Origin: Obrimoposthia wandeli
Taxonomy: Eukaryota
Assembly: GCA_977020255.1 (NCBI GenBank)
Contig: CDROCS010000564.1
Location: 1-64,000 of the forward strand
DNA length: 64,000 nucleotides
Direction: 5' to 3'
Below, one piece after another: positions 21,333-46,094 of this stretch. The position numbers and the translations under genes were made by a program. Every line of letters starts with the position of its first letter. The first letter of the stretch is position 1. The notes under the pieces were generated by a model, which searched no databases, had not been told where the DNA came from, and saw only the letters and a program-made list of their open reading frames with translations.

Positions 21333-21370
21333 TATAAATAAGACCCACGATAGGACCAGAGTTGTCAGTT
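21333..21370 (+). promoter_or_regulatory. Putative LTR core promoter: TATA box (TATAAATA 21333-21340) and initiator (TCAGTT 21365-21370)
   Basis: Consensus TATA about 30-34 nt upstream of a TCAGTT Inr, identical in the 3' LTR. The solo LTR has TATATAAG at 9529 in an equivalent position. Confidence 0.55.
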
Positions 21371-21535: not shown

Positions 21536-21682
21536 ACAACATTCGGAATCGAAAAACGCCGTATTGACAAGTCAACCTACGGAAAACCGAGCAGCCCTCC
21601 GAACTGGAATCTGCCAACAACTGACATCCGAGGAAACATATCGAGGACGGATCAGCAGCACACGAGGCCAGCATACGTACTA

Positions 21683-21714
21683 TTGGTGAGAGTCAGAGGA
21701 AACTATTGGTAAAG
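21683..21714 (+). promoter_or_regulatory. Putative 5' splice donors in the LTR (TTG/GTGAGA at 21686, TTG/GTAAAG at 21709) immediately before the satellite
   Basis: Consensus GT-R-AG donors. The solo LTR has GAG/GTAAGG at 10011, right before its own repeat block. Confidence 0.45.
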
Positions 21715-24665: not shown

Positions 24666-25365
24666 ATTACAACTGAATTTATTGATTAAAGTAATTGAAA
24701 CGAATTAAAATTATTGATTAAAGTAATTGAAACGAATTGAAATTATTGATTAAAGTAATTGAAATGAATTGAATTTATTGAAAGAAAGTAATTTGGAAGA
24801 AAACTAAATTTTCATATATTGACTAAAGGACATTTGAAGTAAAGTATATAATTTTGAAATTTGAAATAAATTACGATTTGGGAGTTTAAATAAAATACAA
24901 TTTAACCTATACATTTAACCGTGTCACATTAGAGTAAAGACTCTAAGAATCACCCAACCCTAACCTTAAAATCGATACGTGGTTCATCCCCACTTGTGTA
25001 GAGACTTACAGAAGTCTTAGGAATTTTACTACAACTTTTTAGAAAATACGTACGTAAACGTATTGTTTTGTTTTAGTCTAGTGTGTTAACAATAAACGAT
25101 TTCCTACATTAGAAAGCATTGTTCTAGACCCTTCAGATTAAGAGACATCGAAAAACAAACACCTTCAGATAAGCATTGAGATAGGCAACTATAACATTAA
25201 GTAGGCCACAACCATCGTTAAGTCCTGCTTCTATAAGAACTCACGTTGAGGCCCTCCGCATTCAAGAGGATCTATAAGTTTCATATAGAAACCCCAACAT
25301 ATTAAATTGATACGCCCGAGTGAGGATAGCTCGTCGGACACAGCGACTTCACATAGAATAATAGA

Positions 25366-25550: not shown

Positions 25551-25997
25551 GTAAATTGAGATAAGTAAACTGATAAGTTTTGAGAAATCGAGTAGATTTG
25601 TTCCTCGAATTAAGTAAATTTGATAAGTTTTGAGAATCGAGTGGATTGTTCCTCGAGGTAATTAATTGAATAGGTTAAGTCGAGAGACATGTCCTCGAAC
25701 TAATTAAATTGATATAAGAAATCTTAAAATAAGAATTATGAAATAAGATAAAGTAATAAGTAAATTGATATCGTAAACGAATACATAATTGATAAGACAA
25801 CGAATAATAAAAACGGACCCGCGTTTAATACTAGAAGACAAAGTCAGATTCCCCAGGAAGAGATAAATAATAATAAATTTAACCGAATTGAGCAGGTTCC
25901 CCAAACAGATAACAAAGTAATAGAAGAGACTAGAATCGAAGAAAACGTATCAGAAAGAGACGTTGATCAATCAGCAGTTTCAACCGACAGTTTTAAT

Positions 25998-28067: not shown

Positions 28068-28243
28068 GATGAAACGAGTGAAGCTCCAGAAGTTTTGGCC
28101 AAATTGCAAACAATTAAAGTGCACAGATTGGAAGAAGTGCGAGCAGAATTGGTTAAACATAGTCATGATAACTTGGGTTACAAAGAAGTATCACGAGGAT
28201 TATTGAAAGTCTTTACGTGCAGAGATCAAACCAAAAAGGAACA

Positions 28244-28466
28244 ATGAAAATTTCTCTTCGATTAATTTCCGGACAGATAATACATGAAAAACTTAACGTG
28301 TATCAAACAATGAAAACTATTCGAAAAAAGTTGGCCGAGAAACTTGAAATTGATGGAATGAATATGTTGTTCCATTATAAAGGAAGATCACTAGATGATG
28401 AAGACGTACCAGTCGAGTGTGGATATCCGATAGGAAACGAATTAGAGGAAAAAATTGATGTCATCA
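28244..28466 (+). CDS. Ubiquitin/SUMO-like (beta-grasp) domain within the polyprotein (ORF 28217-29950)
   Basis: MKISLRLISGQIIHEKLNVYQTMKTIRKKLAEKLEIDGMNMLFHYKGRSLDDEDVPVECGY..IDVI; the LFHYKGRSLDDEDVP.E.G segment resembles SUMO [20 protein letters not shown]. An AT-hook RRGPGRPRK follows at 28973-28999. Confidence 0.6.
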
Positions 28467-29149
28467 CTGTAGGACGTCAGGAGTTAGTAGAAAATGAAGG
28501 ATTAACTGAGATATTAAACTCGGCGTTAGAAATGATAAAAACGCCTATAGAAATTTTAGACAGTTCAAGCGAAAGCGGAGATAATGATGTAGCTGAAGCT
28601 TGGAACAAGACATCCACACCAGAACCGTACGTAGCTGAATTACAAGACGTGGAACTAGAAAATGAGTTGATGACTCCGGTGGTCGAAGTACCACCAGAAC
28701 CAGAGATAATTCAAACCGGACAAGATGAAGTCACGGATATAGCCAACCAAGTGAGACAAAACGAAAACGTAACCCAACTAGTAGAAGACGAAATCTCCGA
28801 GATTGTAGATTTGGATTCACCAATTTGGCATGCTGCATACAGAGATAGACAAGCAGAGCAGATGATGCGACAAAACGAAGAGATTGGCCATGAAGAAGGA
28901 CCAAGTCAAGAGATACAGTATAATGGTGAACCGTATGATCCAGGAGAGAATCAAACTGAGTATCAGTATTTTCGAAGAGGACCTGGAAGACCTAGAAAGG
29001 ATGGAAGTATATTACGAAATGTTCTAACTGCACCACAAACTGATGAGGAGAGACATCTAAGCATTGGACAGCTAGCAGCGTCATTGGAGCAGTATAGTAC
29101 GGAGCGAAATGAAGATATCAGAGGTGATATGAATTCGGAAGCTCCAAGT

Positions 29150-29542
29150 AGTAAAGATATACTTACGGGAATTCTCAGGCAAGTGAAGCCGAAGTTGTTC
29201 AAAATGTACAAAGATGAAACAACCGATATAACAGACAATTTGACCAAAGCAGTTAGATCACAAATGTCTGCAGTAAAGAGAATGACTGCGAATCATGTAT
29301 ACCATGCATCAATAGATAGATTTTATGACGGTGAAGTTTTAGCGAGATTATGTGGAAACCAGACTACAAATAAAAAGTTAATTACAGCGATCACATATCT
29401 ATGTTTCCAATTGACGGAACGAACGAGCCAACCTCACGAAGTCAAACAAGGAATAAATGAAGCGATGTATTTGATCGAGAATATATTGCAGAGACGAATT
29501 GACGAAAACGGAGGTTGGGCAAAATTAAGTGACTACGCTAAA
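29150..29542 (+). CDS. Bcl-2-like domain within the polyprotein
   Basis: BH2-like ILQRRIDENGGWAKL (cf. Bcl-2 LHTWIQDNGGWDAF), with a degenerate BH1 (LARLCGNQTTNKKLITAITY) about 47 residues upstream. Bcl-2 spacing is about 49. Confidence 0.6.
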
Positions 29543-29644
29543 ACCATTGTGGAAATGAACGAAGACGATGACGAACAATGTCATGAGAATCGTCAAAGAG
29601 AAAATAAACAATACCGTCCGAAAGAAAGAAACAATCAACCAAAT

Positions 29645-31157
29645 ATGTCCACAACGATGATGATGATGATGTTAGTAATGTTCATAGGAATGCAACAGGC
29701 ATCAGGGTTGATAGCATACGACTGTAGCATACCAAAGATGGGACAAAAGTATTCACTGCTTGACAGCGAAGACTGTCCAGAATCACAACCGTCAAAATTA
29801 GAAGTTAAAGGTATTGAAAACTACTTTGTGTATCAGGATGTTGATAAAATACAAGTAGAAGTGAAAGAATGTTCAGTCCATTCAAGTTATCACGAATTCT
29901 ATTATGGCCATAGACGTTTTATGTCGGAAATCACACCTACCACACCATAACGAAACAAGACCAATTCCTATGACGCCGACACCTACACTGTTGATGGCAA
30001 CATAAACAGAAGAAGGATTGATATTCATTAAAAAGAGAAATAAAGCGCGATGCGGAATGACTGTTAGTACTACAAACTATCCTGGAATAGTTTTGTCCAG
30101 AGAATTAATAGCATTGGCAGAAACCAAGCTAAAACCTAGAGATATGCAGCTACACACGTATTTTAATAATAAAATTGATTTTTATTATCATAAAGGATTG
30201 ATGCAAATGGAACAGTTATATTGGATGATGATCGAGAGAGATTGCCAGCTAAACAAAGAGATCGTAAGAACAAAGTTAGCATTAGCTATTACGACTCCAG
30301 ACATGATAGCACCATTATTACCCTTGGATGAAGGAGTATTTGCTAAAACCATGGGAGAAGTATTGTATACTTACAAGTATAATAAAGTAGAAGTACAGTT
30401 GAGAACAACAAATCGATGTACGAGTGAATTGGCAGTAACGCATAATTTAAAAGAACTCTTTGTTGAACCAATCACGAGAATGATACTTCCAAAAGACACT
30501 CCAACTAAAGAAATCAGCTGCTCTAATATAATGGCACCTGAATATCAGATGACGAATGATCTATGGATAACGTTACCTGACCGAAAGCCAACGAAAACTC
30601 CAGAGATGATAAAAATGACGAATCTTAAAGGAAAAATGAAATTCGAAGCGGTAGAAAATATGGAGAACGCAGGTTTGTACAATGAAAAAGACTTAAAAGC
30701 GGCCTGGAACGAAATAATGTTTCCAGTAAAAAGGGCCAGAGTACTTACGGAGATGGTACATCGAGCATTACCGCCAGGAGCTAGATATGCGAATTTTGAT
30801 ATGTTGTTATATCCAAGTCATTTCAAGGAAGCAGCACATCAGACACTTAGAAAGATGTGGGGGAAATTCCTTGTTTTAGGACAATTATTTTCGGGTATCA
30901 TAGGTATTTATGTTATAATTAAATTTGTGCAGGTAATTATAGCCCAGGTGTTGTCTACGTATAGTTTATACAGGATAACCGGAATCACCTGGCAACTTAT
31001 AATTGGATGTTTTCCATTTTTAGCAAAATATCTAATGCACCATCATCACGAGAACGAGTTGCGAGCCCTCAAGAAGGAGCAACATCAAACGAGAACCATG
31101 ATGCGAGACCCAAGAAACTATCGAGACGACAACGACGACGATAATGATAGCCCATGA
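29645..31157 (+). pseudogene. env: Envelope glycoprotein of the chuvirus (Jingchuvirales) G type, internally deleted and split across two ORFs (..29950 and 30018-31157)
   Basis: Signal peptide, then LIAYDC...SLLDSEDC...V.VKEC; C-terminal half CGMTVSTTNYP..YFNNKIDF..DCQLNKEI..TKLALA..PD..A..L..GVFA..MGEVLY..VEVQLR.TNRC.SEL.V..LFVEPITR..C..P.Y..AGLYNEKDL..IMFP..WGKFL.LG..FSGIIGIYVII. This is the conserved motif series of chuviral-type G proteins. The Cys-rich middle part is missing. Confidence 0.85.
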
Positions 31158-31394
31158 GAATATGCAAAGATACCAGGAAAACCAAAGATTCCGTTACCAG
31201 ACAAGGAAGAAGTGGCGCTAAACCTATATCCAATGAAGGAACTAAAGGAAGAGAAGGAAAAATTCAAGATAGGCATTTTAATGATAAGATGGCCTAAGAT
31301 AAACTACAGTGAGATTCCACAAGCAGAGGAAAAAGACAAAAAAGATAATTCCAGAAGAATTCTGAAGTCTAGGATATCCAATGAGAATCCAAAT

Positions 31395-31691
31395 GCTCCA
31401 CCACAAGTAGCAGTAACACTGAACGGAAGAGAATATCTTGCCGAAGTTGATACTGGATCTGCAGTATCAGTACTGAGTAAAGAAATCTTGTCATCAAAAG
31501 AATTAAAGGAAGTATGTCCTAGAAAACAGACATTTGTTAACGTGAATGGTACAGATGTAGTATCAGAAGGAACACTGAAATGTTCGTTAAATATCGATGG
31601 AAGAGCATTACAGTTAAATGCTAGAATATTCACAGATTGTGGTAGCCCAGTCATGATTGGGATGGACGTAATAAGGATGTTTGAAGGAATA
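31395..31691 (+). CDS. Retropepsin aspartic protease 1 (ORF 31212-32642)
   Basis: VTLNGREYLAEVDTGSAVSVL...VNVNG...VMIGMDVI; DTG at 31449. Confidence 0.9.
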
Positions 31692-31928
31692 ATTATATTA
31701 CCAAACAACAAGAGTTATAAGAACGACAGTTCAGTGAGAGAGATAAAAATGTTGAGAGGACCTATAGTCGAAAAGGAAAAATACACTATGTTCCGTATGG
31801 GAAATCCGTACCAAGATAAGAAACAGGAAGCGCTAGTAAAGTCGATACTTCACTACAAAGATGTAAACTCCGGACCACAAGCTATGACGAGGAGGAAAAT
31901 AACATATGTGAATCTGTCAGAAAAGGAT

Positions 31929-32949
31929 CCCATGAGATTCGAGAAAAATAGACGAAGATCACTAGAACCGTACTATTCAAAAGAAATGGCACGTAAAATG
32001 GCAAGATCAGGTTTAGAAATGTTAAACGCGACAAGTAGTTATGGTCATGAGGAAGTAGTACGATGCGTATGGTGTAGAGTAAAGTTTAGAAAGTGGGAAA
32101 AGAATGAAAACCCAATGAAACGTCATAAAAGAGATGCACCAAATTGTCCATTTCTTTTGAAACTGAAAACTTCAAACGTACCAGAAATCCAAATGGGAAA
32201 AGCACCCGATTTCGATAACAGTGACGAGATTCCAGAAGGAGAATCAGCTCTAATAGTAGGCAGAGTGATAACAAATAGCCGAATTGAAGACATATTCGAA
32301 GTTATGCGAGAAGTGAACGAATGTGACGAACAATATCGAGAAGTAACTTTCGAAGATCCAAGACTTAAAAAATTGGCAAAAAAGGGACTTTTTGCTATAA
32401 AAAAGGATGGTAAAGACGTAATTAAATGCCACAAGTGTAAAAAAGAACGAATTATCGACAGATATACTCTTGAGTTACCTAAGAAAACGTTACATCATGA
32501 ATTTTGCGAATTTTGTATTTTTAAAAACAAAATAAAGCAAAAAGAACAGAAAACCGAATGTATAATCGAATACCAAATCACACGGAAAGAGATTTTGGCT
32601 CAACAAGACAGTAGTGTCATTCGTGAGAAGACTATATCCTAAAGAAGCAGAAAGAATCAGAGATTTGGTAGAATTAAAAATAAAAACTACGCGAAACGGA
32701 TACGGATCAATTTTTGAATTATTGAGAGATAAAGATGACAGTACAATTGAAACAAAAGAGAAAGAGTACATAAACGAACTAGAATACGTACTGGAAGATC
32801 CGGAATGCGCAGTTAGCATGGTCAACAAAATAGAAGTTGCCTTTTTACCATGCGGACATGTAAGAACATGTCGGAGATGTGCGAAGGAAATGGTATCATG
32901 TCCGATTTGTAGAAAGATAATAGATCGACAAGTGAGAAATATTAGATTT
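31929..32949 (+). CDS. Inhibitor-of-apoptosis (IAP) module: BIR1, degenerate BIR2, UBA-like and RING, split by one frameshift (~32566-32640)
   Basis: BIR1 EKNRRRS..MARSG..VRCVWC..KWEKNENPMKRHKRDAPNCPF; BIR2 REVTF..LAKKGLF..DVIKCHKC..H..CEFC; UBA-like LNKTVV..IRDLVELKIKTTRNGY (cf. cIAP MNTPVV..VKQTVQSKILTTGENY); IAP-type RING CAVS..VAFLPCGHVRTCRRCAKEMVSCPICRKII, with the second Cys mutated to Ser. Confidence 0.9.
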
Positions 32950-33033
32950 CACTATCCAAACAAAGGAAGTGGACAGACAGAGTTTAATAATTCGATAAAT
33001 ACAATATACCATATGGGAAATATAAATGGAGCA

Positions 33034-33327
33034 CAGCGACCAGCAGCTATCATTAGAGTAAATAATTTAAGAGTAAAAGCCTTAATTGATACAGGTGCTG
33101 TAGCTTCGATAGTAAGTGAAGACTGTTTGACAGAAGAACAGAAACGAACAATGGCAGAACCAGATGAATTCTTGGTATCGGTCAATGGAGACCCTGTAAA
33201 AGTGACGGGAATATTACCATGTACATTTATAATTGGACGTAATACGATCACTATACCAGTTAGAATCACGAAAGAATGTCCTGAACCTACAATTTTAGGA
33301 ATGGATGTACTATCACAACTCAAAGGG
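33034..33327 (+). CDS. Retropepsin aspartic protease 2 (ORF 32614-34689)
   Basis: IRVNNLRVKALIDTGAVASIV...VSVNG...TILGMDVL; DTG at 33088. Followed by the usual Gypsy IPVRLMN...RGMRLG spacer. Confidence 0.92.
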
Positions 33328-33720
33328 ATAAGTATCGATTTACAAGATCCAAGATTGAAAGATAGTACATCAAATAGACAAATAAATCAAATTGATGTAA
33401 TTATAGAAAATCCTATAAAAATAGGTAAAAGATCACAATTTCTCATTCAAGGTCACACATTATCAGAAGATAAAGGACCAGTTGTATTCGAACCATCACG
33501 GGATTTCATAGAGAAATACGAATTACCAGTTGTGAGTACAGTATGTCTGATTGAAAACCACAAAATACCAGTTAGGCTGATGAACACAACCAACAACGAC
33601 ATCCTGTTATACAGAGGAATGAGGTTGGGAAAGATAGCACAGATGGAGAATCCCACCGTGTGTGCTATGAAACTCGATAAAGATACGAATGATTACGAAG
33701 AAATAGTAATCCAATCAGAA

Positions 33721-34689
33721 AGACTGACAACCAGAGAAAAGAAACAATTACTCGATCTAATACATAAATTTCCAAAAGTAATTGCAAAAAATCCATATGA
33801 CATAGGAGAAACACCTGTCATAAAACACACAATACCACTGACAGAAGACAAAGTAGTCAGAAGAAGACCATATCGAGTACCATTACAGTTACAAGACGAA
33901 GTCAAAAGCCATATCGAAGATATGTCTAAAACAGGAGTAATTAGACCGAGTTTTTCACCATTCTCAGCACCTGTGGTGTTGGTAAAAAAGAAGGATGGGA
34001 AAATGAGATTTTGTATAGATTTCAGAGAACTGAACAAGATCACAAGAAAAGATGTGTATCCATTACCTAGAATCGAAGAGATGCTCGATAAATTGGGTAA
34101 TTCAGATTATTTTACGACATTAAATTTGCAGAGTGGATACTGGCAAATCAAGATAGAGGAAGAGGACAAACACAAAACAGCCTTTTCCTGCGGAGATGGA
34201 CTGTACGAATGCGAAAAAATGCCATTCGGACTGACAGGAGCTCCAGCAACATTTCAGCGTTGCATGAATTTTGTACTCGCATCGTGTGCAAACACGATGG
34301 TTTATATCGATGACATAATAATATTTTCTAAAACGTTCGAAGAACATTTAAAAAATCTTGAAGTTGTATTTAAAAGACTGGAAAACGCTAAATTAAAAGT
34401 TAAACCTACAAAATGCGAATGGGCTAAAGAGCGAGTAACATTTTTAGGACATATAGTATCGAAAGAAGGCATCCGACCTGATCCAGCAAAGATCGAGAAA
34501 GTAAAAGCGCATTTAGCGCCAAAGACTGTTAAGGAAATACAGAGTTTTTTAGGTCTTGCGAATTATTATAGACGATTTGTTGAACATTTTTCAGATATAG
34601 CAACACCATTGAGAAAGTTGACGAGGAAAGATGAGAAGTTCATATGGGGAAAGGAAGCACAACAAGCGTTCGAACATTTAAAAGACTGA
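33721..34689 (+). CDS. pol: Reverse transcriptase (first catalytic Asp mutated to Asn)
   Basis: PYRVP..SPFSAPVVLVKKKDGKMRFCIDFRELN..YPLPRI..TLNLQSGYWQ (normally TLDL; AAT at 34123)..MPFGLTGAPATFQR..YIDD (34303-34314). Confidence 0.97.
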   Translation, partial: RLTTREKKQLLDLIHKFPKVIAKNPYDIGETPVIKHTIPLTEDKVVRRRPYRVPLQLQDEVKSHIEDMSKTGVIRPSFSPFSAPVVLVKKKDGKMRFCIDFRELNKITRKDVYPLPRIEEMLDKLGNSDYFTTLNLQSGYWQIKIEEEDKHKTAFSCGDGLYECEKMPFGLTGAPATFQRCMNFVLASCANTMVYIDDIIIFSKTFEEHLKNLEVVFKRLENAKLKVKPTKCEWAKERVTFLGHIVSKEGIRPDPAKIEKVKAHLAPKTVKEIQSFLGLANYYRRFVEHFSDIATPLRKLTRKDEKFIWGKEAQQAFEHLKD

Positions 34690-35177
34690 TAAAAGCACCA
34701 ATATTAGCGTTTCCAGATATAAACCGACAATTCATACTCATGACAGATGCAAGTAACTATGCTGTAGGAGCAGTATTGGGACAAGAGGATGACGAAGGAA
34801 GAGAACACGTCATCGCGTATGCGAGTAGAGGATTAAACAGAGCTGAAAGAGGATACTCTGTTATTGAAAAGGAATGTCTAGCCATAGTGTATTCATGTAG
34901 ACAGTACAGACACTACTTGCTAGGACAAAAAGTATTCCTGTATACAGATCACAAACCACTACAGTTCTTATATAAACACAGAGACGAGATGAGTAGATTA
35001 AATAGATGGTTTCTAAAATTGGCCGAGTTCGATCTAGAAATCCATTATAGAACCGCAAAGTCGAATGGCAACGCAGATTGTTTGTCGAGGTTGACAAATG
35101 TAGACGAGAAAGGAAACATAATTCCAGAAGAAGAACAAGATGAAACCAATGACCAAGAAGGAGAAGAAATCTACTAA
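34686..35177 (+). CDS. RNase H (frameshifted relative to RT)
   Basis: APILAFPD..TDASNYAVGAVLGQ..IAYASR..YSVIEKECLAIV..TDHKPL..NADCLSR. Confidence 0.95.
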   Translation: MIKAPILAFPDINRQFILMTDASNYAVGAVLGQEDDEGREHVIAYASRGLNRAERGYSVIEKECLAIVYSCRQYRHYLLGQKVFLYTDHKPLQFLYKHRDEMSRLNRWFLKLAEFDLEIHYRTAKSNGNADCLSRLTNVDEKGNIIPEEEQDETNDQEGEEIY

Positions 35178-35182
35178 CGATT

Positions 35183-36430
35183 TTGCTGAAGACGGGTAAA
35201 ATAGACAAAGAGATCATCAAAGAACAGAAAGAAGATGAAGAACTGAGTCTAATCAAAGAACTGTTGGTAAAAGGAGATCTAAACGATGAAATGACGAAAA
35301 AATACTCGATAAAAGAAGGAATCTTGTATATTGTCAACAATGTCGGAAAGATAGTAGTAGTAATTCCGAAGTCATTGAAAACAGCAGTGATGATCCAGTA
35401 TCACGATGGAACACTAGGAGGACATCTGTCAGGACGAAAGACAATAGCCAGAATCAAAGAGAAATACCATTGGGATGGTATGGAAGACGACATAAAACAA
35501 TGGTGTAAACAATGTAAAGTATGTTTAACCAGAAAAGACACTGGAACTCGTACTAAAGTTCCACTGAAACCAATGCCAGTTCCTTTGGCACCAATGGAAT
35601 TCACAGCGATGGATATATTGGGACCATTGAGAGAATCAAGTAAAGGAAACAAGTACGTCATAGTATTTACGGACTACATGACGAGATGGGTAGAAGCATA
35701 TCCCATGAAAAACCAGAAGGCTGAAACAATAGCGCAGATCTTAGTGGAAGAGATAATATTTCGATACGGAGTGCTTAGAAAGTTGTTAACGGATCAAGGT
35801 AAGAACTTCACCGGAGAAGTAATAAAAGCAGTATCGAAGATATTCGGAATCATGAAGTTACAAACTTCACCATATCACCCACAAACCGATGGTCTAGTAG
35901 AAAGGTTTAATAAAACTTTATGTATGATGGTACAATCCTATTGCTCAGACAATCAAGAGGATTGGGATAAATATTTACCTTCATGTTTATATGCTTACAG
36001 GAATTCAGTTCGAGAGGCGACGGGTCACACACCATTATATCTGATGTATCTCAGACAGAACAATATGCCAATGGATCTGGAGTGGACCGAACCAACATCT
36101 CAATACTTAGAAACTGAACAATACATCGTCGTTATGAAAGAAAGACTACAAGATGCTTGGACCAAAGCCGGATTGAAGTTGAAATTCAATCAAGAAGGTT
36201 ACAAGGAACAATAGGACAATAAAGCAAAACCACATGAATTTAGAGTCGGAGATCAAGTGATGATATTTTATCCAGTCATCGAACCAGGTCTATCGTTTAA
36301 ACTTCATAGACCATACAAAGGACCATACAAGGTGATACAGACAACCTCAACAAATTTGAAAGTAATCAACGAGGAGAACCGGAACAAAGAACCAATGATT
36401 GTACATGCAAATCGATGTAAATTAGTACCA
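35183..36430 (+). CDS. Integrase (HHCC, DDE, GPY/F); premature TAG at 36212, continues in frame into ORF 36257-37021
   Basis: HDGTLGGH..CKQCKVC; DILGP..TDQG..DGLVERFNKTL; EQ*DNKAKPHEFRVGDQV..KLHRPYKGPYKV. Confidence 0.95.
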
Positions 36431-36539: not shown

Positions 36540-37960
36540 TGACAAGTGGTAGCGAGGAAAAACCAGCGAGAATTGGCATGCTCAGAATGAAGCACCAAGA
36601 GGAAAAAGAAGTAATTCGACACATCGCACCACAAGAGATATTGGAAGAAGACGAAGAGATCATAGTTGTTTTCGAAAGAACACAACCAACAGACGTGGCG
36701 AAAGAAGTCATTGTGAAAGATGCACTGATAAACGAATTTCTGTGCGAACTTAGAGTGTCATACTACGACGGAAATACACTAGTCGCAGAACTACATCAAA
36801 ACTCCAATGTGTTTACGACTGAGAAAGTGATAATCAAAATCACATTGACACCAAACATAGTTGCATGGCAGAACTATGACAGTACTGAAGCAGGACTAGC
36901 CAGTCAGGAAGAAAAAGAACTGGCCGGTGGTCATATACTTCATGGTACACCAAAAAGACTCAAACAAGAATACCACGATGTGATAATGGTATTACGTAAT
37001 TCACATGGAGAGTTCATTTAATTGACGCTGACACTGAAAAGATAATCTGTCAGATGGACACCAAATACTTTGACGGAAAGACAATTATATGTAGTATACC
37101 GGAATTCCACCAATTAAACACAGATCAAACGGAAGTATCTGTAAGGTTGAGCGTAATAGAAGGATTTCATTCGCCAACCCAACCGGAAGTAACAAACAAT
37201 AAAATCATTAAAGCAACGGCAGAGTTACGCATTGACAGCGGATACCGGAAGTGGGAAGCTAAAAATAAACCACAAAGAATCAATATGATCCGGGAACAAG
37301 TGACAACCTCAATCCAACCAAAATATCATGCTGAAATAGTATCATCCGCGCCAAGTGTGATTACATCGATAAACGACGAAATTATAATTTTACTAAAAAA
37401 TCGATGGCCGTCATCAACCGAGATACGAGTCAATTTAATTAATTATGCGAAAACACTGATATCTAAGCTGAATGTCACCTATTTCGATGGATTGTCCATC
37501 ATGGGTAAATTGGAAACAATTGTCATGTGCTATGGAGAGATACTTAAGGATAGTGTAATACCGTATCCAATTCACAGATACGCAGGACCAGTCTATCCAA
37601 TTATTCTAACCCCTTCATTAATTTCAGTTCAGACAGACATACCAGAATACCCTTCGAGCGAGTCTAGTCAAGACAGCGAACCTGAAAGTAGCGATCCAGA
37701 ATCAACAGAATCCGAAGATAACATAATAGAACGATTCGGAAGAACCATGGAGGTTGAATTCGCTAAAGAGAGTAGAAAAAGACGAAACATAGAATTTGTG
37801 AAACAAAATATACAAGAAAGACGAATTAAATCTGCAGAAGAGACCGAGTCGGACGAGGAACCAACAAAGAAACAGACATCAGAGACAAAGATGAATATCT
37901 CTCCAGCAAGGAAAGAAACTGGCGAAATTATCTATCATCGACGAACAAATAGAGAAGAGA
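36540..37960 (+). CDS. Unassigned post-integrase polyprotein region (two frameshifted ORFs), with a possible IPT/TIG-like segment at 36932-37165
   Basis: Long open frames with a -1 join near 37015. ILHGTP..VIMVLRN..IICSIPEF..VSVRLSVIEG resembles NFAT IPT LFVEIPEY..VKVNFYVING. Acidic stretch and a KRR motif follow. Confidence 0.45.
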
Positions 37961-38368
37961 TTAGAAAGACTAAAACTTGAAGAGTCAGAATTAATGCCAC
38001 CAATGAGTGAGATCATTCCAGGTAAGTTATACCTCGGAAATGTGGAAGATGCAACAGACGAAAAGAAACTGTTGGAACAAGGGATAACATACGTGATCAA
38101 CGTTACAATGAATCACAAATCACAATATCAGACGATCAGAGCTATGACATTAAGAGTAAAAAAGAGATTAGAAAGACTAAAATTTGAAGAGTCAGAATTA
38201 ATGCCACCAATGAGTGAGATCATTCCAGGTAAGTTATACCTCGGAAATGTGGAAGATGCAACAGACGAAAAGAAACTGTTGGAACAAGGGATAACATACG
38301 TGATCAACGTTACAATGAATCACAAATAACAATATCAGACGATCAGAGCTATGACATTAAGAGTAAAA
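37955..38368 (+). repeat. 207-bp in-frame tandem duplication of the phosphatase N-terminus
   Basis: ATGCCACC at 37994 and 38201; the second copy has TCA>TAA at 38327. Confidence 0.95.
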
Positions 38369-38625
38369 GACTCAATGGAAGCTAATCTTCTCGAATGGTT
38401 CGTAGAAACAAACGAGATACTTCACAGAGAACTCCAAAACCAAGGAAAAGTGTTGGTACATTGTCAGAAAGGAATCTCCCAATCAGCAACCCTAGTATTA
38501 GCGTATCTAATAAAGACTAGACGAATGCAGGTACTAGAAGCACTGAAATACCTACAGGAAAGAAGAAGTATTGCGAACCCAAACCTTAATTTTTTGGGGC
38601 AATTGTCAAATTACCAACTCCTGTT
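38210..38625 (+). CDS. Dual-specificity (MAP kinase-type) phosphatase domain, P-loop Arg replaced by Gln
   Basis: MSEIIPGKLYLGN..GITYVINVT..GKVLVHCQKGISQSATLVLAYL..AL..LQERRSIANPNLNFLGQL. The consensus is HCxxGxSRS; CAA at 38480. Confidence 0.92.
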
Positions 38626-38728
38626 GCAAGAACAGAGACGGATGGACGACATCCCTGAGGATCCAAAGGAAAAGAATTTCCTCCAAGCACTATCGTTGAC
38701 CGGTTTATTCTTAGCCGGAGTCGACAAA

Positions 38729-39147
38729 ATTACTCAGATAATGCCGAAAGTATTTTTATGTCATCCAGGAGATATAGATACCGCTGGATTAAAGTTCAAC
38801 AGTATCAACCGAGTAATTAACATTGTTGAAGTCGAAAATGAGATAATCAGTCTGTGTCAAAATACTGAAGATGACACAACTCGATACATACATGCTTCCA
38901 ATCGGGAGATAAACGATGCACAACAACACCTGATGAAGTTGACTCAAACCATCCAAGCCGAAGTTACAGAAGGAAACGGCGTTCTGATATATCAGAAAAA
39001 AGGTACAATGTTAGCTCCTACCATAGGTGTATCCTTGTTGGTAGAGTACCATGGTCATACACCAGAAGAAGCGATGGTTTATATCAAACAGAATAGACCA
39101 GATACGGAATTCAAACCGTTACTCGTTCGAGAAATAGAGAAATACTC
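38729..39147 (+). CDS. Second, catalytically dead DUSP-like domain
   Basis: ITQIMPKVFL..INRVINI..GNGVLIYQKKGTMLAPTIGVSLLVEYHG.TPEEAM.YIKQNRP keeps the DUSP layout but lacks HC...R. Confidence 0.65.
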
Positions 39148-39199
39148 CGAAAAGAGGAAGCAACAACGAGAAACAAATGAAGCTACAACAACAGAGCCC

Positions 39200-41881
39200 A
39201 GCTATCAATACCAAAGATTGCTAGCACTAGGCTTGTTAAGTTGTCTAATGCCTATAACGGGAGCACAAGAGATAGGCTCCAACCACGGAAATAGTTCATG
39301 GTTCAAAGAAATCAACAACTACATCATACAGTACAATACACCGGCACTGATGATGCTATTAGTGTTGATAGGACTAATTGATGTATGGTTTATCCGAAAA
39401 TGTATCCGATCTATGAGAACCGATAGTAAAATATTTCAGTTTGTGAAAATGAAGAGACCAAATGAACCAACGAACCAAGTACTTGTGTATCTAGACGAAA
39501 GGATTGAGGATAACATAGTGAATGAAGCGATATTTTATCCACAAAACAGATTACTGAATCAATTCCGAATGGACTACGAAGCTGACCGACAGCGCACACT
39601 TGACCGAATATCAGCAACGTTCGCCGGATGCAAGCGAAGAAGGCGAATTGTGAGGGAAATACAAAAAGATGCGGATACAAAAGGTCCGACGTATATATTC
39701 GACGGCGATGTCATCAAAACACGTGAGTATGGAAGTAAGAGAGTGATAATTGAAACGATGGAAGGACATAAAATATGCTTGTCCGCCAAAAATGGATTCG
39801 GAAAGTTGATGATACAAGGTAAACAGGTACAGTTGATTATCGGAAAAACTGGAATCAAAGAAATGTCAAAGCAACGACAGACAACCAAACGACCTAACCA
39901 GAAACAGATGTCTCTCAAACGAATGATAATCAAAATCCTTTGCAAAAGGACAATCAAGGCCCTGTGCACTGTTGCACAAGGATTGATCTACGGAGTAGTA
40001 ATTGGATTGGTACTACAAGCCATTCCAACCAGTAAAGCTGAATTGATGACGCTACCTGGATATAATTTACATTTGAGAAATCTAGACAACACCCTAGAAA
40101 TAATCAATACGTCTCAAAGTAAAGCCGTAATGGTCATGTGTGTGAAAGGATGTCCAGGACGAATGTGTATAGTCCCAGCGACCGAAATGAAAACACTTAA
40201 TGGACATTATGGAGTTAGTGTTGTCACATGTGAAGATTACACATTTGGACAAACTAAAATAGTACTTCTCAGTGACATGTCCAATCAAAGTGTACATAAA
40301 TTTAAAATATTAACCATCAAGAGTAAAGGGATACCAGCAATACGTTATGGTATTCTAGAATTGGTTAATCCAATACTGGCATTGATCATTGGATTTATAA
40401 TATTAATATTACTCATCTTGTTTTGTTGTACAAAGATAGAGTTGAGATCAAAAAAGAAACGTCATGATCTCGCAAGACAAGCAGGTCAAATGAATTTACA
40501 AAAATTCAACACAAGTATACCAAGACCAGCATTCCTAAATGAACCAGCACGAGAGTACCAGCCAACGATATATGAACATATCGAGGAAAGACCGTACTAT
40601 ATGAGTAACTTGAGTTATTCCAGAGAAGTTCCTGAGATTCGGAATCGGACGATCATCGGAATCATGCTGATCATGCAAATCACCACGACCGAGGCTGGTT
40701 ATGAGATCATGATCAGTAAATGGAGACAAGATACGATACGGGCGTTATCCATAAAAATACCTCTAATAAAAACAAATTACGTAATATACATTCACCTACA
40801 AACATCAGCAACCGAAAATGTCGATCAGAAATTGTATGTCATTCGCCAGATCAAAATAAAGATTGACCAACATAAACTTTATTACCGACTGATATTATTC
40901 TACCATGAAAAGGTATTATACCTACGAATAACAATATCAAAAATGAAACGGATTATTCAATTTATCCAAACAAAGTCATTAATATTACCTAACGACGAGC
41001 GCATCTGGAAAGTTGTCGACAGGATTATGATCACAGGTAGACGACGTAAAACCGTATGGAATTCCGTTAGATTATTCTTCAGATTGTTAGAAACTGACAA
41101 AGTAACAGTGTCGTGTCCCAATCCAGATAGTGGAATCAGATTCGAAATTCAAAACCAAATGTTAGTACCACATTTTGATACAGAACGTCTATGTAACCGA
41201 ATTCCCAGCAATGCTAGAGAGACCTCTACCAAAATCATGGTAATAACAGGTGAAATATTCTACATAACTCTAAGATACCAGACACGTCGATTTCGTGGAC
41301 TCGGTATAAGTATCAAACCAAGGAAAATCATTCCTGGAAAACCAATCATAGTCATAAAAAAGGAAAAGGTGAAAGGAAGTAAACGCCATTCCGAGAAGCC
41401 AAAAGTAATCATAACAAAGACAGAGGTGAAAGGAAAAGAGTTCGAGCCCAGAAATCAAAGCACAATTATTGAGAAGACAAGAGTGAAGGGAACGATTCCA
41501 CTAGATCCCAAATATCATCTCAAATCCCAAATAATAATACCTGTTAGACCAAAAACAAAATATCCAAATCTGCGAGTTATTAGAAAATCGGACATAATAC
41601 ATGGAAACCGATCAACACCAATGGAAACGTCATTCAAACCGACAAACAACAAAATGAAGTATGATTATCAATCATCAGACAGCGGAATAACAGCGGTCAA
41701 TGCTCTAATTGGAATGGCAGTAGTGTCAACAGCAGTGGTTCTATTGACAGTCGTGTGCGTGAAAGGCAGTCAAGTATGCCCAAGAATACGACGAAAATGC
41801 GAAGGACTGCGATGCTGTAACACACCCACAATGGAGGAAGTGGAATTGCGACCCTTACCTCCGCCTCCCATCAAGACATGA
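39200..41881 (+). CDS. C-terminal polyprotein region encoding several putative type-I membrane proteins separated by internal signal peptides
   Basis: Alternating signal-like segments (39215-39265 ending ITGA/Q, 39962-40039 ending SKA/E, 40646-40696 ending TEA/G) and TM segments (39341-39394, 40364-40426, 41684-41761). Ends RPLPPPPIKT*. Confidence 0.6.
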   Translation, partial: SYQYQRLLALGLLSCLMPITGAQEIGSNHGNSSWFKEINNYIIQYNTPALMMLLVLIGLIDVWFIRKCIRSMRTDSKIFQFVKMKRPNEPTNQVLVYLDERIEDNIVNEAIFYPQNRLLNQFRMDYEADRQRTLDRISATFAGCKRRRRIVREIQKDADTKGPTYIFDGDVIKTREYGSKRVIIETMEGHKICLSAKNGFGKLMIQGKQVQLIIGKTGIKEMSKQRQTTKRPNQKQMSLKRMIIKILCKRTIKALCTVAQGLIYGVVIGLVLQAIPTSKAELMTLPGYNLHLRNLDNTLEIINTSQSKAVMVMCVKGCPGRMCIVPATEMKTLNGHYGVSVVTCEDYTFGQTKIVLLSDMSNQSVHKFKILTIKSKGIPAIRYGILELVNPILALIIGFIILILLILFCCTKIELRSKKKRHDLARQAGQMNLQKFNTSIPRPAFLNEPAREYQPTIYEHIEERPYYMSNLSYSREVPEIRNRTIIGIMLIMQITTTEAGYEIMISKWRQDTIRALSIKIPLIKTNYVIYIHLQTSATENVDQKLYVIRQIKIKIDQHKLYYRLILFYHEKVLYLRITISKMKRIIQFIQTKSLILPNDERIWKVVDRIMITGRRRKTVWNSVRLFFRLLETDKVTVSCPNPDSGIRFEIQNQMLVPHFDTERLCNRIPSNARETSTKIMVITGEIFYITLRYQTRRFRGLGISIKPRKIIPGKPIIVIKKEKVKGSKRHSEKPKVIITKTEVKGKEFEPRNQSTIIEKTRVKGTIPLDPKYHLKSQIIIPVRPKTKYPNLRVIRKSDIIHGNRSTPMETSFKPTNNKMKYDYQSSDSGITAVNALIGMAVVSTAVVLLTVVCVKGSQVCPRIRRKCEGLRCCNTPTMEEVELRPLPPPPIKT

Positions 41882-42006
41882 TAAGTCAGAGGAGGTTGTA
41901 GATAAATTAGTGTGTAAAAATAGGTAGAAATATCTAGAAGCGATTGTACAAATAAGTAGAAATATGTAAAACTCATGTAGAAATTAATTGTCATAATGTA
42001 TTTAGA

Positions 42007-42306
42007 ATGTCCGAAGAATGCCCAATATGTTTGGAAGATTTAACCGAACGAAGAACAAGACCCGAAACCTGCAATCATTTACATCACGAGGAATGTTTAT
42101 CAAAATGGATCAGAACTTATGGAGAATTCGTACATCCAACATACCCTCGTTGCCCTGTATGCAGAAGACAATTCACAAAGTTCATCATAATAGAACCCAA
42201 CCAAGAGGATGTAGATGTACAAGTGGTATTCTGTTGGAAGAATTTGAGAGAATGTTGGTGTTACTACTGTCTGTCAGAACGACAAAATCCGACCACTTTT
42301 GTGTAA
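42007..42306 (+). CDS. Small RING-H2 protein 1 (putative E3 ligase) with C-terminal Cys cluster
   Basis: CPIC..CNHLHHEEC..W..CPVCR; C-terminal CWKNLRECWCYYCL. Confidence 0.88.
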   Translation: MSEECPICLEDLTERRTRPETCNHLHHEECLSKWIRTYGEFVHPTYPRCPVCRRQFTKFIIIEPNQEDVDVQVVFCWKNLRECWCYYCLSERQNPTTFV

Positions 42307-42366
42307 ACATCACACAACCACCAGTCTCCAATCGAGCCCAAATTCAACATCAACCCTCTCACAGTA

Positions 42367-42672
42367 ATGTCTGGAGAATGTTCAATCTGCTACGAGAACA
42401 TCGTGGACCTCTACACCAAACCCAACAACTGCGACCACCAGTTCCACGTCGAATGCCTCGAGACGTGGATCCCAATCGCCAACAACAACAATCCCCTCGA
42501 CTACTTAAACTGCCCGATGTGCAGAGCAACCTTCTCGGTGCACTATGTCTACAATCGGGACAGCCTCCAAGCAGTGGTACCCATTGTACACTGCTGAAAA
42601 AACATCTGCGACTGCTGGTGTTCGTTCTGCATGGAGGAGCGACGCACAGGCCAGCCCAATACCCAGCAGTAA
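42367..42672 (+). CDS. Small RING-H2 protein 2 (premature TGA at 42595; true end probably TAA 42670-42672)
   Basis: CSIC..CDHQFHVEC..W..CPMCR. Reading through the stop gives HC*KNICDCWCSFCMEERR, paralogous to RING1 FCWKNLRECWCYYCLSER, implying TGG>TGA. Confidence 0.88.
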
Positions 42673-43014
42673 TCGAAGGTAACTTTTGACTTAAAACGTG
42701 ACATCATGAACTACCCCTGTGTATCGCATACCGCGATAAATTAGTTACCATAATTGTAATCATAATTGTATAATCTTGTGAAATTGTAAAATGACCGTTA
42801 CCATTTTTATGTATGTTGTTTATTTGAAATTGTAATTATTAAGACTGAAACTCATAGAGACAATTTTTTTATACTTAGTATGAATGTGAAAAAACATGCC
42901 TAAAATCAAGCAGAATTCGGTAGGATTAAAAATAACATTAAAATTAAAATATTAATTTCGTAAATTAATATTAAACCCAATCGAACCCCAAATTAAAGAG
43001 TAATTATTGCGCAG

Positions 43015-43545
43015 ATGCTTTGTGCAATTTGCCTCGAGAAAATCTGGGCAGCGTCAGCATCCCCTGTCGGGTGCCGACACAAATTCCACGAGTCCTGCCT
43101 CTATTCGTGGGCCAAGGCTCGACCCCCCGGCCACATCACATGCCCGATGTGCCGGGCACCCTTTTGCAAGTGGACGCTCCAGTGCCGTGGACGATCCAAG
43201 GGCACCCGCTCACCCACCAGCTGCATTGGTGGCGAGCACTGTCAGTGCTCCATGTGCCTCGCGCGCCGTCGCAACACACAATTTGGCATCCGCGAGCGAT
43301 GGCGGTCTAGCTGCGATAACCGCTCGTGGCAACAGGCCAGACGCTTATGGATGGAGAACCATGAGCTGAACGGGCAGAACTTCGACCTATTTATCGAAAG
43401 CCCACACATGACCCTGAGCCAGTAGCTACTCCTATACAACGGGGACATTCCGTCCTTTCCAGACCTACCCCTGGAGCAGGTCACACTCTATCTGGACAAT
43501 CGAAACCAACAAACCGTGACAATAGACCTTACCATCAACAATTGA
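43015..43545 (+). CDS. RING-H2 protein 3 (probable premature TAG at 43423; frame stays open to TGA 43543-43545)
   Basis: CAIC..CRHKFHESC..W..CPMCR; CIGGEHCQCSMCLARR; the extension ends QTVTIDLTINN*. Confidence 0.82.
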
Positions 43546-43816: not shown

Positions 43817-46094
43817 TGTTAGGTTTAGGAATTGATAAAAATAAAATAATTAATCGAAATTATAGTGAAATAAGAATCCTTGAAAGCAAGGTTATAAATT
43901 AAATAAAATTGAATATTAGAATTAAATTATTAAAATTAAAAGGTAAATTGAATATTAAGGACCACGAAGGTCGTGTGTAGTGCGCTGTATGTATGGGAGG
44001 TTAAATTATTATTAAGGGCCCCAAAAAAACAAGAATCAATTAAGAAAAACGAAAATCTAATTAAGAAGATTATTGCAAAAAGTTTATTAAGAAAAATGAC
44101 GAATAAGAAAATCAAATTAGTCGTACATTAGAAACCCATTAGCAGTCTGGGATCTACGACAACAGAAACCCATTAGCAGTCTGGGAGCTACGACAACAGA
44201 AACCCATTAGCAGTGTCTGAGAGAGCACTTAACGGGATCGGGACCTCTGAACAGCAAGCAGCAAGTAGACTGCGGAATTGAGTCACGGAGGAACAAACAG
44301 GAAGTCCATTAGCGTCTGGACAGCGACTGTCTAGGAAACCGGAGGTAAAGTGGATTTGAGATTATCCATTATTTACTCTTGTAGAATCTCGGCAGCAAAC
44401 AAAAAGCTTTTATAAAAGCGTGGCAATACACTACGGGTATAAATAAGACCCGCGATAGGACCAGAGTTGTCAGTTCTAACGAAAAGTGCAGCCAGATAAT
44501 TCAGATTTTAACGAAAAGTGGAGCCAGATAATTCAGAGTTCTAACGAAAAGTGCAGCCAGATAATTCAGATTTTAACGAAAAGTGGAGCCAGATAATTCA
44601 GAGTTCTAACGAAAAGTGCAGCCAGATAATTCAGATTTCTAACGAAAAGTGCAGCCAGATAATTCAGATTTCACAACATTCGGAATCGAAAAACGCCGTA
44701 TTGACAAGTCAACCTACGGAAAACCGAGCAGCCCTCCGAACTGGAATCTGCCAACAACTGACATCCGAGGAAACATATCGAGGACGGATCAGCAGCACAC
44801 GAGGCCAGCATACGTACTATTGGTGAGAGTCAGAGGAAACTATTGGTAAAGTATTTTGAAAATATAAAAGTATTGATTGAAATAAAAGTCGTAAATATAT
44901 TTTGAAAGTGTAAAAGCACTGATACATTGTGAAATAAAGTCGTAAAGTATTTTTGAAAGTGTAAAAGCATTAATATATTGTGAAATAAAGTCGTAAAGTA
45001 TTTTTGAATGTGTAAAAGCATTGATATATTGTGAAATAAAAGTCGTAAAGTATTTTGAAGATATAAAAGTATTGATTGAAATAAAAGTCGTAAAGTATTT
45101 TGAAGATATAAAAGCATTGATACATTGTGAAATAAAGTCGTAAAGTATTTTTGAAAGTGTAAAAGCATTAATATATTGTGAAATAAAGTCGTAAAGTATT
45201 TTTGAATGTGTAAAAGCATTGATATATTGTGAAATAAAAGTCGTAAAGTATTTTGAAGATATAAAAGTATTGATTGAAATAAAAGTCGTAAAGTATTTTG
45301 AAAATATAAAAGCATTGATACATTGTGAAATAAAGTCGTAAAGTATTTTTGAAAGTGTAAAAGCATTGATATATTGTGAAATAAAAGTCGTAAAGTATTT
45401 TGAAAATATAAAAGTATTGATTGAAATAAAAGTCGTAAAGTATTTTGAAAATATAAAAGCATTGATACATTGTGAAATAAAGTCGTAAAGTATTTTTGAA
45501 AGTGTAAAAGCATTGATATATTGTGAAATAAAAGTCGTAAAGTATTTTGAAAATATAAAAGTATTGATACATTGTGAAATAAAATGAAATAAAATTGATA
45601 CATTTTTCATATATTGACTAAAGGACATTTGAAGTAAAGTATATAATTTTGAAATTTGAAATAAATTACGATTTGGGAGTTGAAATAAAATACAATTTAA
45701 CCTATCCATTTAACCGTGTCACATTAGAGTAAAGACTCTAAGAATCACCCAACCCTAACCTTAAAATCGATACGTGGTTCATCCCCACTTGTGTAGAGAC
45801 TTACAGAAGTCTTAGGAATTTTACTACAACTTTTTAGAAAATACGTACGTAAACGTATTGTTTTGTTTTAGTCTAGTGTGTTAACAATAAACGATTTCCT
45901 ACATTAGAAAGCATTGTTCTAGACCCTTCAGATTAAGAGACATTGAAAAACAAACACCTTCAGATAAGCATTGAGATAGGCAACTATAACATTAAGTAGG
46001 CCACAACCATCGTTAAGTCCTGCTTCTATAAGAACTCACGTTGGGGCCCTCCGCATTCAAGAGGATCTATAAGTTTCACATAGAAACCCCAACA
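43817..46094 (+). repeat. 3' LTR (2278 bp)
   Basis: Direct repeat of the 5' LTR, TGTTAGG...CCCCAACA, followed by TSD GTAT. Confidence 0.95.

What the first reader, a model, noticed from the sequence alone, without database searches (positions are those of the whole stretch)
38210..39147. Tandem dual-specificity phosphatase and pseudo-phosphatase downstream of integrase
Seen: a full DUSP catalytic domain (HCQKGISQS; the Arg>Gln change is one G>A from CGA) followed by a second DUSP fold with no catalytic Cys or Arg. Known: poxvirus VH1 and baculovirus PTP are virion DUSPs, and MKP-type DUSPs inactivate ERK/JNK/p38. Inference: the element dampens stress-MAPK (pro-apoptotic JNK/p38) signalling, with the dead domain acting as a substrate trap or docking module.
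Basis: partly seen in the sequence, partly recalled or inferred. Interest (0 to 1): 0.7.

Follow-up and report, generated by a model that had tools for sequence, protein, structure and literature searches.

The report
Giant retrotransposon carries MAPK-phosphatase-like pair
A very large, envelope-bearing jumping gene carries a phosphatase resembling the enzymes that switch off cell-death (JNK) signalling, plus an inactive twin; this copy is broken, but the family keeps both domains under selection, suggesting the element tampers with host stress signalling.

Summary
The two DUSP folds are real and lie inside a 25.4-kb Ty3/gypsy LTR element of Burro-like build (gag, fusion-type env, BIR, RING, pol). 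Contigs from three runs of one sample show the stop and the Arg loss are private (at most 0.33% of depth at the Arg codon); the family keeps CX5R. Differences shared with other copies are mostly synonymous in both domains (10 of 11), so both were under purifying selection. Domain 2 lacks Asp, Cys and Arg family-wide as far as listed. Domain 1 best matches MKP5/DUSP10, keeps the LNFL JNK-docking motif and lacks a rhodanese domain, which points to JNK; trees neither show nor reject MKP ancestry. Domain 2 has neither the phosphate-binding Arg nor that motif, so a phospho-MAPK trap is unlikely; a scaffold role fits better. No relative with this cargo was found. Substrate and expression are untested; I recall, unverified, a 'DUSP' label on planarian Burro maps. 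New variant of a known kind.

The parts
20712..25299 (+). 5' LTR (TG...CA, 4,588 nt, long internal tandem-repeat array); 4-bp target-site duplication at 20708-20711
   Evidence: self-BLAST and end check; repeats
25764..28067 (+). gag with CCHC zinc knuckle
   Evidence: PF00098 E 7.6e-6
28172..31157 (+). weak ubiquitin-like N-terminus, then mononegavirus-type fusion glycoprotein (env) between gag and pol, in two ORF pieces
   Evidence: PF24664 E 5.1e-9 and 1.1e-66; PF00240 E 0.0029, below cut-off
31158..34689 (+). aspartyl protease, BIR, RING, second protease, reverse transcriptase (two ORF pieces)
   Evidence: PF00653 E 2.5e-14, PF13920 E 1.4e-10, PF00078 E 2.5e-37
34635..36214 (+). RNase H and integrase (two ORF pieces)
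   Evidence: PF17917 E 6.1e-40, PF17921 E 4.8e-19, PF00665 E 8.8e-12
36611..37620 (+). three diverged repeats of an IPT/TIG-like beta unit between integrase and the phosphatases (lead only)
   Evidence: ESM Atlas TIG clusters 0.91, 162 of 256 features; internal repeats E 4e-5 and 7e-5; no Pfam hit; single-sequence fold failed
37955..38368 (+). 207-nt in-frame tandem duplication of the N-terminal third of domain 1 (units 37955-38161 and 38162-38368)
   Evidence: two differences between units
38210..38617 (+). DUSP domain 1, MKP-like; broken in this copy by a stop (38327-38329) and Gln at the catalytic Arg (38480-38482); general-acid Asp 38369-38371; P-loop 38459-38485; LNFL docking motif 38585-38596
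   Evidence: family state
38729..39142 (+). DUSP domain 2, pseudophosphatase (no Asp, Cys, Arg, no FXF-type motif)
39176..41881 (+). rest of the same ORF: about 900 aa, five transmembrane-like stretches, first at 39323-39406; no Pfam family above cut-off
41956..43425 (+). three short RING-finger ORFs
   Evidence: PF13639 E 3.4e-10, 2.6e-9, 3e-8
43817..46094 (+). 3' LTR (TG...CA, 2,278 nt, shorter repeat array); target-site duplication at 46095-46098
   Evidence: 1305 of 1315 aligned positions identical to the 5' LTR in three repeat-free blocks

Best explanation
The pair is selected cargo of a high-copy, Burro-like giant LTR retrotransposon. In working members domain 1 is a Cys-based dual-specificity phosphatase taken from a host MKP without its rhodanese kinase-binding domain. 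It most likely binds the host's JNK through its LNFL motif, as the bare catalytic domains of MKP5 and MKP7 do, and removes JNK's activating phosphates, lowering stress-induced apoptosis in cells that express the element; BIR and RING cargo would act the same way. Domain 2 is a diverged, catalytically dead fold kept as a structural or protein-binding module (spacer, dimer or membrane-proximal scaffold), not a phospho-MAPK trap. The pair is probably made as part of the long polyprotein and lies just before membrane-spanning segments. The copy in this window is a dead, decaying insertion. Shown: anatomy, private nature of the stop and Arg loss, selection on both domains, motif content. Inferred: enzymatic activity, JNK as substrate, polyprotein continuity, anti-apoptotic effect, role of domain 2.
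For: Element anatomy. At the Arg codon 99.7%, 99.9% and 99.7% of contig depth in X1, X2, X3, and the one X5 contig there, read the catalytic-Arg codon; the stop is carried by at most 73, 168 and 132 depth units against about 1e5-3e5 at neighbouring sites. Differences where over 5% of X1 depth shares the window's letter: domain 1 5 of 5 synonymous (p 0.002), domain 2 5 of 6 (p 0.01), together 10 of 11 (p 4e-5) against 0.29 expected; whole stretch 21 of 24 at 2% or more, but only 2 of 10 among private changes. Top 13 PDB sequences are DUSP10, then DUSP4, 1, 2; closest protein of 194 is a rhodanese-bearing MKP, 48% identical, with the same LNFL. The motif class occurs in 42 of 56 domains of the MKP-rich clade and 0 of 151 outside. 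MKP7 FNFL and MKP5 Leu449/Phe451 dock JNK1 with no need for the kinase-binding domain, while p38 needs it in MKP5 (PMC4802042, passages and section 9). Burro cargo is apoptosis- and ubiquitin-related (PMC6431247 section 7). JNK triggers apoptosis in planarians (PMC4055413 abstract).
Against: Trees do not place domain 1 among MKPs: unresolved in FastTree, joined to a Leishmania DUSP at SH-aLRT 81 in IQ-TREE; the constrained MKP clade was merely not rejected (p-AU 0.68). Profile test is intermediate: score difference +5.75 bits, reached by 5 of 168 held-out non-MKP scores, while all 84 held-out MKP scores were higher. Structural Z does not separate MKPs from Slingshot, DUSP18 or STYX (25.8-24.6). 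The motif count is partly circular, as those columns helped build the clade. The copy data come from short contigs of one sample plus a few of another; 169 of 209 differences were not shown, 6 of the 40 shown were left out and the share classes were set after seeing the data. Nucleocytoviricota DUSPs also match the fold well, so a particle-protein phosphatase remains open. The host group is only hinted at.
Confidence: 0.5

Rival explanations
1. VH1-like housekeeping role: domain 1 is active but dephosphorylates the element's own gag/env/pol products or another host target during particle assembly, as poxvirus VH1 does in virions (recalled).
For: Probably made inside the polyprotein and so near particle proteins (inference); viral DUSPs match the fold (best E 2.7e-13); MKP ancestry unproven.
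Against: No chain named VH1 or poxvirus phosphatase is among the 60 best of 75 PDB sequences shown; chordopoxvirus and baculovirus models rank 33rd or lower at 20-21% identity, an entomopoxvirus one 19th at 24%; the docking motif is kept; 0 of 120 long pol relatives and 0 of 4 related loci carry a DUSP, so the clade assembles without it.
Confidence: 0.22
2. One reading: domain 2 is a substrate trap or MAPK docking module replacing the lost rhodanese domain and feeding JNK/p38 to domain 1.
For: Domain 2 is under selection (5 of 6 synonymous) and folds as a DUSP (pLDDT mostly 80-92 in its core); receptor-PTP D2 domains recognise substrate (PMC8269279, passage).
Against: It lacks the P-loop Arg that STYX-type domains keep and has PDTEFKPLL where the docking motif lies; it scores lower on the MKP than on the non-MKP profile in 6 of 6 rounds.
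Confidence: 0.13
3. Neutral passenger: a captured host DUSP fragment, duplicated and decaying, of no use to the element.
For: This copy has a stop, a catalytic-site loss, a duplication and many frame breaks; relatives lack the cargo.
Against: The lesions tested are private; shared differences are 21 of 24 synonymous; both domains are under 50% identical to anything in 1.84 billion representatives bar a 51% partial match, so they have long kept an open frame.
Confidence: 0.07
4. RNA 5'-phosphatase in the manner of DUSP11 or baculovirus PTP, hiding element RNA from sensors (families recalled).
For: A retroelement handles RNA; the DSP fold includes such enzymes (established knowledge).
Against: No chain named DUSP11 or capping enzyme is among the 60 best PDB sequences shown or the 50 best structures; loop and C-terminal motif are of protein-DUSP type.
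Confidence: 0.04

Closest known systems
Burro / GYPSM1 giant gypsy-like LTR retrotransposons of planarians (PMC6431247, section 7 read)
   Same: Very large LTR element; mononegavirus-like fusion env between gag and pol; BIR, RING and ubiquitin-like cargo; coding span of about 5,370 codons against ORFs of 4,873 and 5,140 aa; many copies; AT-rich host.
   Different: 25.4 kb, not over 30 kb; no MATH, BCL2 or ankyrin found by Pfam; that review names no phosphatase (0 hits for 'phosphatase' and 'DUSP'); TIG-like repeats, DUSP pair and three RING ORFs after integrase. I recall a 'DUSP' label in the Burro figure of Grohme et al. 2018, which I could not read; the label could also mean the unrelated USP-associated DUSP domain.
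MKP5/DUSP10 and MKP7/DUSP16 catalytic domains (PMC4802042, passages and section 9)
   Same: Best sequence matches (E 6e-25; DUSP16 4e-21); Asp, Cys and, in the family, Arg; LNFL docking motif.
   Different: No rhodanese kinase-binding domain; about 40% identity only; followed by a dead second fold; encoded by a mobile element.
STYX / MK-STYX pseudophosphatases and receptor-PTP D2 domains (PMC8269279, passages)
   Same: DUSP fold without the nucleophilic Cys; active-plus-dead tandem as in D1-D2.
   Different: Domain 2 has also lost Arg, Asp and the Ser/Thr of the loop. Active-plus-dead DUSP tandems also occur in unnamed cellular proteins (P0180, P0187, P0188, P0219, P0224, P0262) whose active domains do not group with domain 1: likely convergent.
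Viral DUSPs (poxvirus VH1, baculovirus PTP, giant-virus DUSPs)
   Same: A virus-like element carrying a DUSP; same fold.
   Different: Lower identity (17-32%) than to animal MKPs; single domains; DNA viruses, not retroelements.

Membership tests
Ty3/gypsy LTR retrotransposon | Two LTRs with TG...CA ends and a target-site duplication | tested here: met
   20712-25299 and 43817-46094, 4-bp duplication
Ty3/gypsy LTR retrotransposon | gag then PR-RT-RNase H-integrase order | tested here: met
Burro-like giant elements | Mononegavirus-like fusion env between gag and pol | tested here: met
   PF24664 E 1.1e-66 at 30006-31157
Burro-like giant elements | BIR and ubiquitin-like cargo | tested here: met
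   BIR E 2.5e-14; ubiquitin only E 0.0029, below cut-off
Burro-like giant elements | MATH, BCL2-like, ankyrin cargo | tested here: inconclusive
   Not seen by Pfam in the 16 ORF pieces scanned; no profile-profile search run
Burro-like giant elements | Total length over 30 kb | tested here: not met
   25,383 nt, internal 18.5 kb; hence 'Burro-like', not Burro
Burro-like giant elements | One polyprotein of about 5,000 aa | tested here: inconclusive
   This copy is in 11 ORF pieces over about 5,370 codons; relatives L001, L002, L004 have single ORFs of 3426, 3703, 2693 aa
Burro-like giant elements | RT grouping with Burro; planarian host | not testable with these tools
   No Burro sequence or host genome held; closest RTs are unnamed metagenome proteins at 53-63%
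Active DUSP (domain 1, family level) | CX5R P-loop and general-acid Asp | tested here: met
   Asp and Cys in the window; Arg codon in at least 99.7% of contig depth. Not met in this copy.
Active DUSP (domain 1, family level) | Measured phosphatase activity | not testable with these tools
   bench work
MAP kinase phosphatases (MKP) | N-terminal rhodanese kinase-binding domain | tested here: not met
   No Pfam rhodanese upstream; a profile that found 33 of 194 session proteins hit none of nine element segments. So not a member; it may still work like one.
MAP kinase phosphatases (MKP) | FXF-type motif opening helix 5 of the catalytic domain | tested here: met
   LNFL at 38585-38596 aligns with MKP5 LNFM; defined in PMC4802042
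MAP kinase phosphatases (MKP) | Catalytic domain groups with MKPs | tested here: inconclusive
   (p-AU 0.68)
STYX-type pseudophosphatase (domain 2) | DUSP fold lacking catalytic Cys | tested here: met
STYX-type pseudophosphatase (domain 2) | Keeps Gly, Ile, Ser and Arg of the loop | tested here: not met
   YQKKGTMLAPT keeps only Gly against PMC8269279

The most novel reading that the evidence does not exclude
An env-bearing retroelement has captured a MAP-kinase phosphatase, stripped it to the JNK-selective catalytic domain, paired it with a dead twin and TIG-like decoy repeats in its polyprotein, and uses it with BIR and RING domains to switch off JNK-driven death of the host (probably stem) cells in which it transposes: a retroelement-encoded kinase-pathway antagonist of the sort known from large DNA viruses.
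Probability: 0.33. Interest if true: 0.78.

Novelty: new variant of a known kind. Interest (0 to 1): 0.5.

Why it matters
Giant Burro-like elements are suspected of meddling with host apoptosis and ubiquitination, but that rests on domain lists (PMC6431247). Here a cargo enzyme has a simple assay, a predicted substrate (JNK), a known docking motif and evidence of purifying selection, which makes the 'tinkerer' idea directly testable. It would also add a natural case of an active-plus-dead DUSP tandem that arose in a mobile element. If the substrate is not a MAPK, it remains an unusual but expected kind of cargo.

Tried and rejected
Own genome not held, so copies could not be counted or phased. 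No RNA holder listed among 5 runs: says nothing on expression. No close relative of the pair: word search, 45 hits, all generic DUSPs; 1.84 billion representatives, none at E 1e-30 or better, best tandem hits are cellular double DUSPs with no retroelement domain among the top five Pfam families shown for the 31 of 150 scanned (P0170 has a DDE_1 domain); long-protein search, 0 of 2661 candidates (weak); metagenome scan with the pair, 0 of 114 stretches; viral contigs with the env alignment, 0 of 181. P0032 shares the loop HCQKG but resembles the Leishmania proteins, no element link. Whether the 207-nt duplication is private is not settled: no such joint among the 15 of 32 shown, contigs too short. 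Origin of domain 2 (duplication of domain 1 or separate capture) unresolved: long-branch join only. First tree run timed out. Single-sequence fold of one TIG-like unit failed (pLDDT 49.7). The fold search of the tandem model tested residues 1-146 only, and the model was built on a DUSP alignment, so it is no independent proof for domain 2. Complex prediction with JNK was not run: no eukaryotic reference is offered. No tRNA genes in the window; primer-binding site not identified. Earlier findings: three look-ups, none returned. Literature: searches for a DUSP in an LTR element found nothing relevant; PMC8532177, PMC11410931 and PMC13238120 (passages) have 0 hits for DUSP. Grohme et al. 2018 and its supplements, the place most likely to pre-empt novelty, could not be read.

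Full report
Observation. The stretch 38210-39147 encodes two DUSP folds on the + strand. Domain 1 matches Pfam DSPc (E 4.4e-27 for the part after its stop) and domain 2 matches positions 2-129 of the 133-position profile (E 1.3e-6); the ESM Atlas ranks DSPc clusters first for domain 2 alone (0.95, 190 of 256 features). The loops are HCQKGISQS (38459-38485) and YQKKGTMLAPT (38990-39022).

Context. The pair lies in a 25,383-nt LTR element: LTRs at 20712-25299 and 43817-46094 with TG...CA ends, a 4-bp target-site duplication, and 1305 of 1315 positions identical in three repeat-free blocks, so the insertion is young. Order: gag (CCHC), weak ubiquitin-like domain, mononegavirus-type fusion env (E 1.1e-66), protease, BIR, RING, protease, RT, RNase H, integrase, three TIG-like repeats (lead only), the DUSP pair, about 900 aa with five transmembrane-like stretches, then three RING ORFs. 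The coding region is in 11 pieces over about 5,370 codons. Env between gag and pol, BIR, RING and ubiquitin-like cargo and a polyprotein near 5,000 aa describe the planarian Burro elements (PMC6431247, section 7 read). It is shorter than 30 kb and could not be compared with Burro sequence, so I call it Burro-like. The closest RTs (17 of the 120 listed, 53-63% identical; 11 of them with the same env family) are unnamed metagenome proteins. None of the 120 hits a DUSP profile, nor do 4 of 4 related loci, of which L003 ends within env and L004 1.4 kb after integrase; L001 and L002 carry an exonuclease-like ORF downstream instead. The slot after integrase is thus variable cargo.

Other copies. Three runs of one sample laid 53,428-62,359 contigs on 2.5 kb, which indicates a very high-copy family (depth is no copy number); a marine metagenome run added 12 contigs. 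At the catalytic-Arg codon 99.7%, 99.9% and 99.7% of depth, and the single X5 contig, read Arg: the loss is private to this copy. The stop is carried by at most 73, 168 and 132 depth units, against about 1e5-3e5 at neighbouring sites; the site lies in the duplication, so contigs with a sense codon are placed on the other unit, which is open in the window itself. Loose ends at 37909 show that other copies differ from this one at the frame break; by eye I infer that the break is private and that the pair is normally in frame with the TIG-like repeats. Continuity further upstream was not tested. None of the 40 best-supported differences falls in 38966-39078, so the dead loop of domain 2 is the family's majority state as far as listed; 169 weaker differences were not shown, and a one-letter gap in an A-run at 38996 (10-14% of depth) resembles other homopolymer gaps in the table.

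Selection. I classed 34 of the 40 listed differences (left out: the two break sites and four rows at 39642-39654 beside a fall in depth). Where over 5% of X1 depth shares the window's letter, 5 of 5 in domain 1 and 5 of 6 in domain 2 are synonymous (10 of 11, p 4e-5 against 0.29 expected with a transition bias). Over the whole stretch 21 of 24 differences shared at 2% or more are synonymous, against 2 of 10 private ones. This is the pattern of purifying selection while the lineage was moving, then neutral decay after insertion. The classes were set after seeing the data, the rows are the tool's selection and contigs are unphased, so it is strong but not a formal dN/dS.

What domain 1 works like. 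The 13 best PDB sequences are DUSP10/MKP5 (E 6e-25 to 6e-23), then DUSP4, DUSP1, DUSP2, STYX, DUSP16 and DUSP8; no poxvirus VH1 is named among the 60 of 75 shown. The alignment keeps the general-acid Asp and places LNFL (38585-38596) on MKP5 LNFM. In PMC4802042 (passages and section 9) this motif, FNFL in MKP7, docks the catalytic domain on JNK1 without the rhodanese kinase-binding domain, is needed to block UV-induced apoptosis, and MKP5 needs its kinase-binding domain for p38 but not for JNK1. The element has no rhodanese domain. A KBD-less MKP-type domain therefore predicts JNK first. Among session proteins the motif class is in 42 of 56 domains of the MKP-rich clade and 0 of 151 others (partly circular), and the closest of 194 proteins is a rhodanese-bearing MKP with LNFL at 48%. 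Against: two trees leave domain 1 outside or unresolved, the constrained clade is only not rejected (p-AU 0.68); a profile test puts it between the groups; structural scores do not discriminate. So it fails membership in the MKPs (no KBD, grouping unproven) while plausibly working like one.

Domain 2. It has lost Asp, Cys, Arg and the docking motif. STYX-type pseudophosphatases keep Gly, Ile, Ser and Arg in the loop (PMC8269279, passages); without Arg a phosphate-binding trap is unlikely (established PTP chemistry). Yet it is selected and modelled as a full fold (pLDDT mostly 80-92 in the core, pTM 0.58 for the pair, so the domain arrangement is uncertain; model built on a DUSP alignment). A scaffold or binding role, as for receptor-PTP D2 domains, is the likeliest inference. 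Active-plus-dead tandems also occur in unnamed cellular proteins whose active domains do not group with domain 1.

Host. Not determined. The flanks are AT-rich and an ORF at 48857-49189 looks like a flatworm-type PW/W-amide neuropeptide precursor (recalled, no Pfam hit). If the host is a planarian-like flatworm, JNK is the trigger of apoptosis in regeneration and remodelling (PMC4055413, abstract), which would give the element a motive.

Novelty. Searches of the held literature found no DUSP in an LTR element, the Burro review names none, and protein searches found no relative with this cargo. But I recall, unverified, a 'DUSP' label in the Burro figure of Grohme et al. 2018, which is not held. 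Verdict: a real, selected cargo in a known kind of giant element; new variant of a known kind; the window's copy is dead; JNK antagonism is the leading, untested mechanism. Interest 0.5.

Noticed in passing
window 36611-37620 (+): Three diverged repeats of an IPT/TIG-like unit between integrase and the DUSP pair (Atlas 0.91; internal BLAST E 4e-5, 7e-5); could be decoys of NF-kB/NFAT- or BCAP-type domains (recalled idea, untested). Fold attempt failed.
   Followed up: partly
window 48857-49189 (-): ORF reading like a neuropeptide precursor: hydrophobic leader, dibasic sites, a W...W-Gly-Lys-Arg peptide; resembles flatworm NPP-5/PW-amide or MIP peptides (recalled). No Pfam hit. Host gene outside the element.
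   Followed up: partly
window 41956-43425 (+): Three short separate RING-finger ORFs just before the 3' LTR, in addition to the BIR-RING (IAP-like) pair inside the polyprotein.
   Followed up: no
window 31158-33330 (+): Two aspartyl-protease domains flank the BIR-RING module; relatives L001 and L002 also have more than one protease-like domain before RT, and P0143/P0146 one after integrase, suggesting proteases that cut out cargo.
   Followed up: partly
window 21367-24800 and 44472-45617: Both LTRs hold tandem arrays (33-nt and 45/51-nt units); the array is about 2.3 kb longer in the 5' LTR although the unique parts are 99% identical.
   Followed up: no
window 39176-41881 (+): About 900 aa after domain 2 with five transmembrane-like stretches and no Pfam family above cut-off; an unexplained membrane cargo.
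   Followed up: partly
L001 10617-12104 and L002 12085-13470: Related env-first giant gypsy elements carry an RNase_T (DEDDh) exonuclease-like ORF downstream of pol (E 1.4e-5 and 0.0011).
   Followed up: no
P0120-P0166 (11 proteins): A clade of unnamed metagenome polyproteins with gag-env(PF24664)-pol in one frame, some with Ig or ankyrin domains; P0135 is labelled as a bacterial protein, probably a mis-binned eukaryotic element.
   Followed up: partly
window 13924-14424 (+): 166-aa ORF that reads like a decayed integrase zinc-finger region of another element (by eye, not scanned).
   Followed up: no
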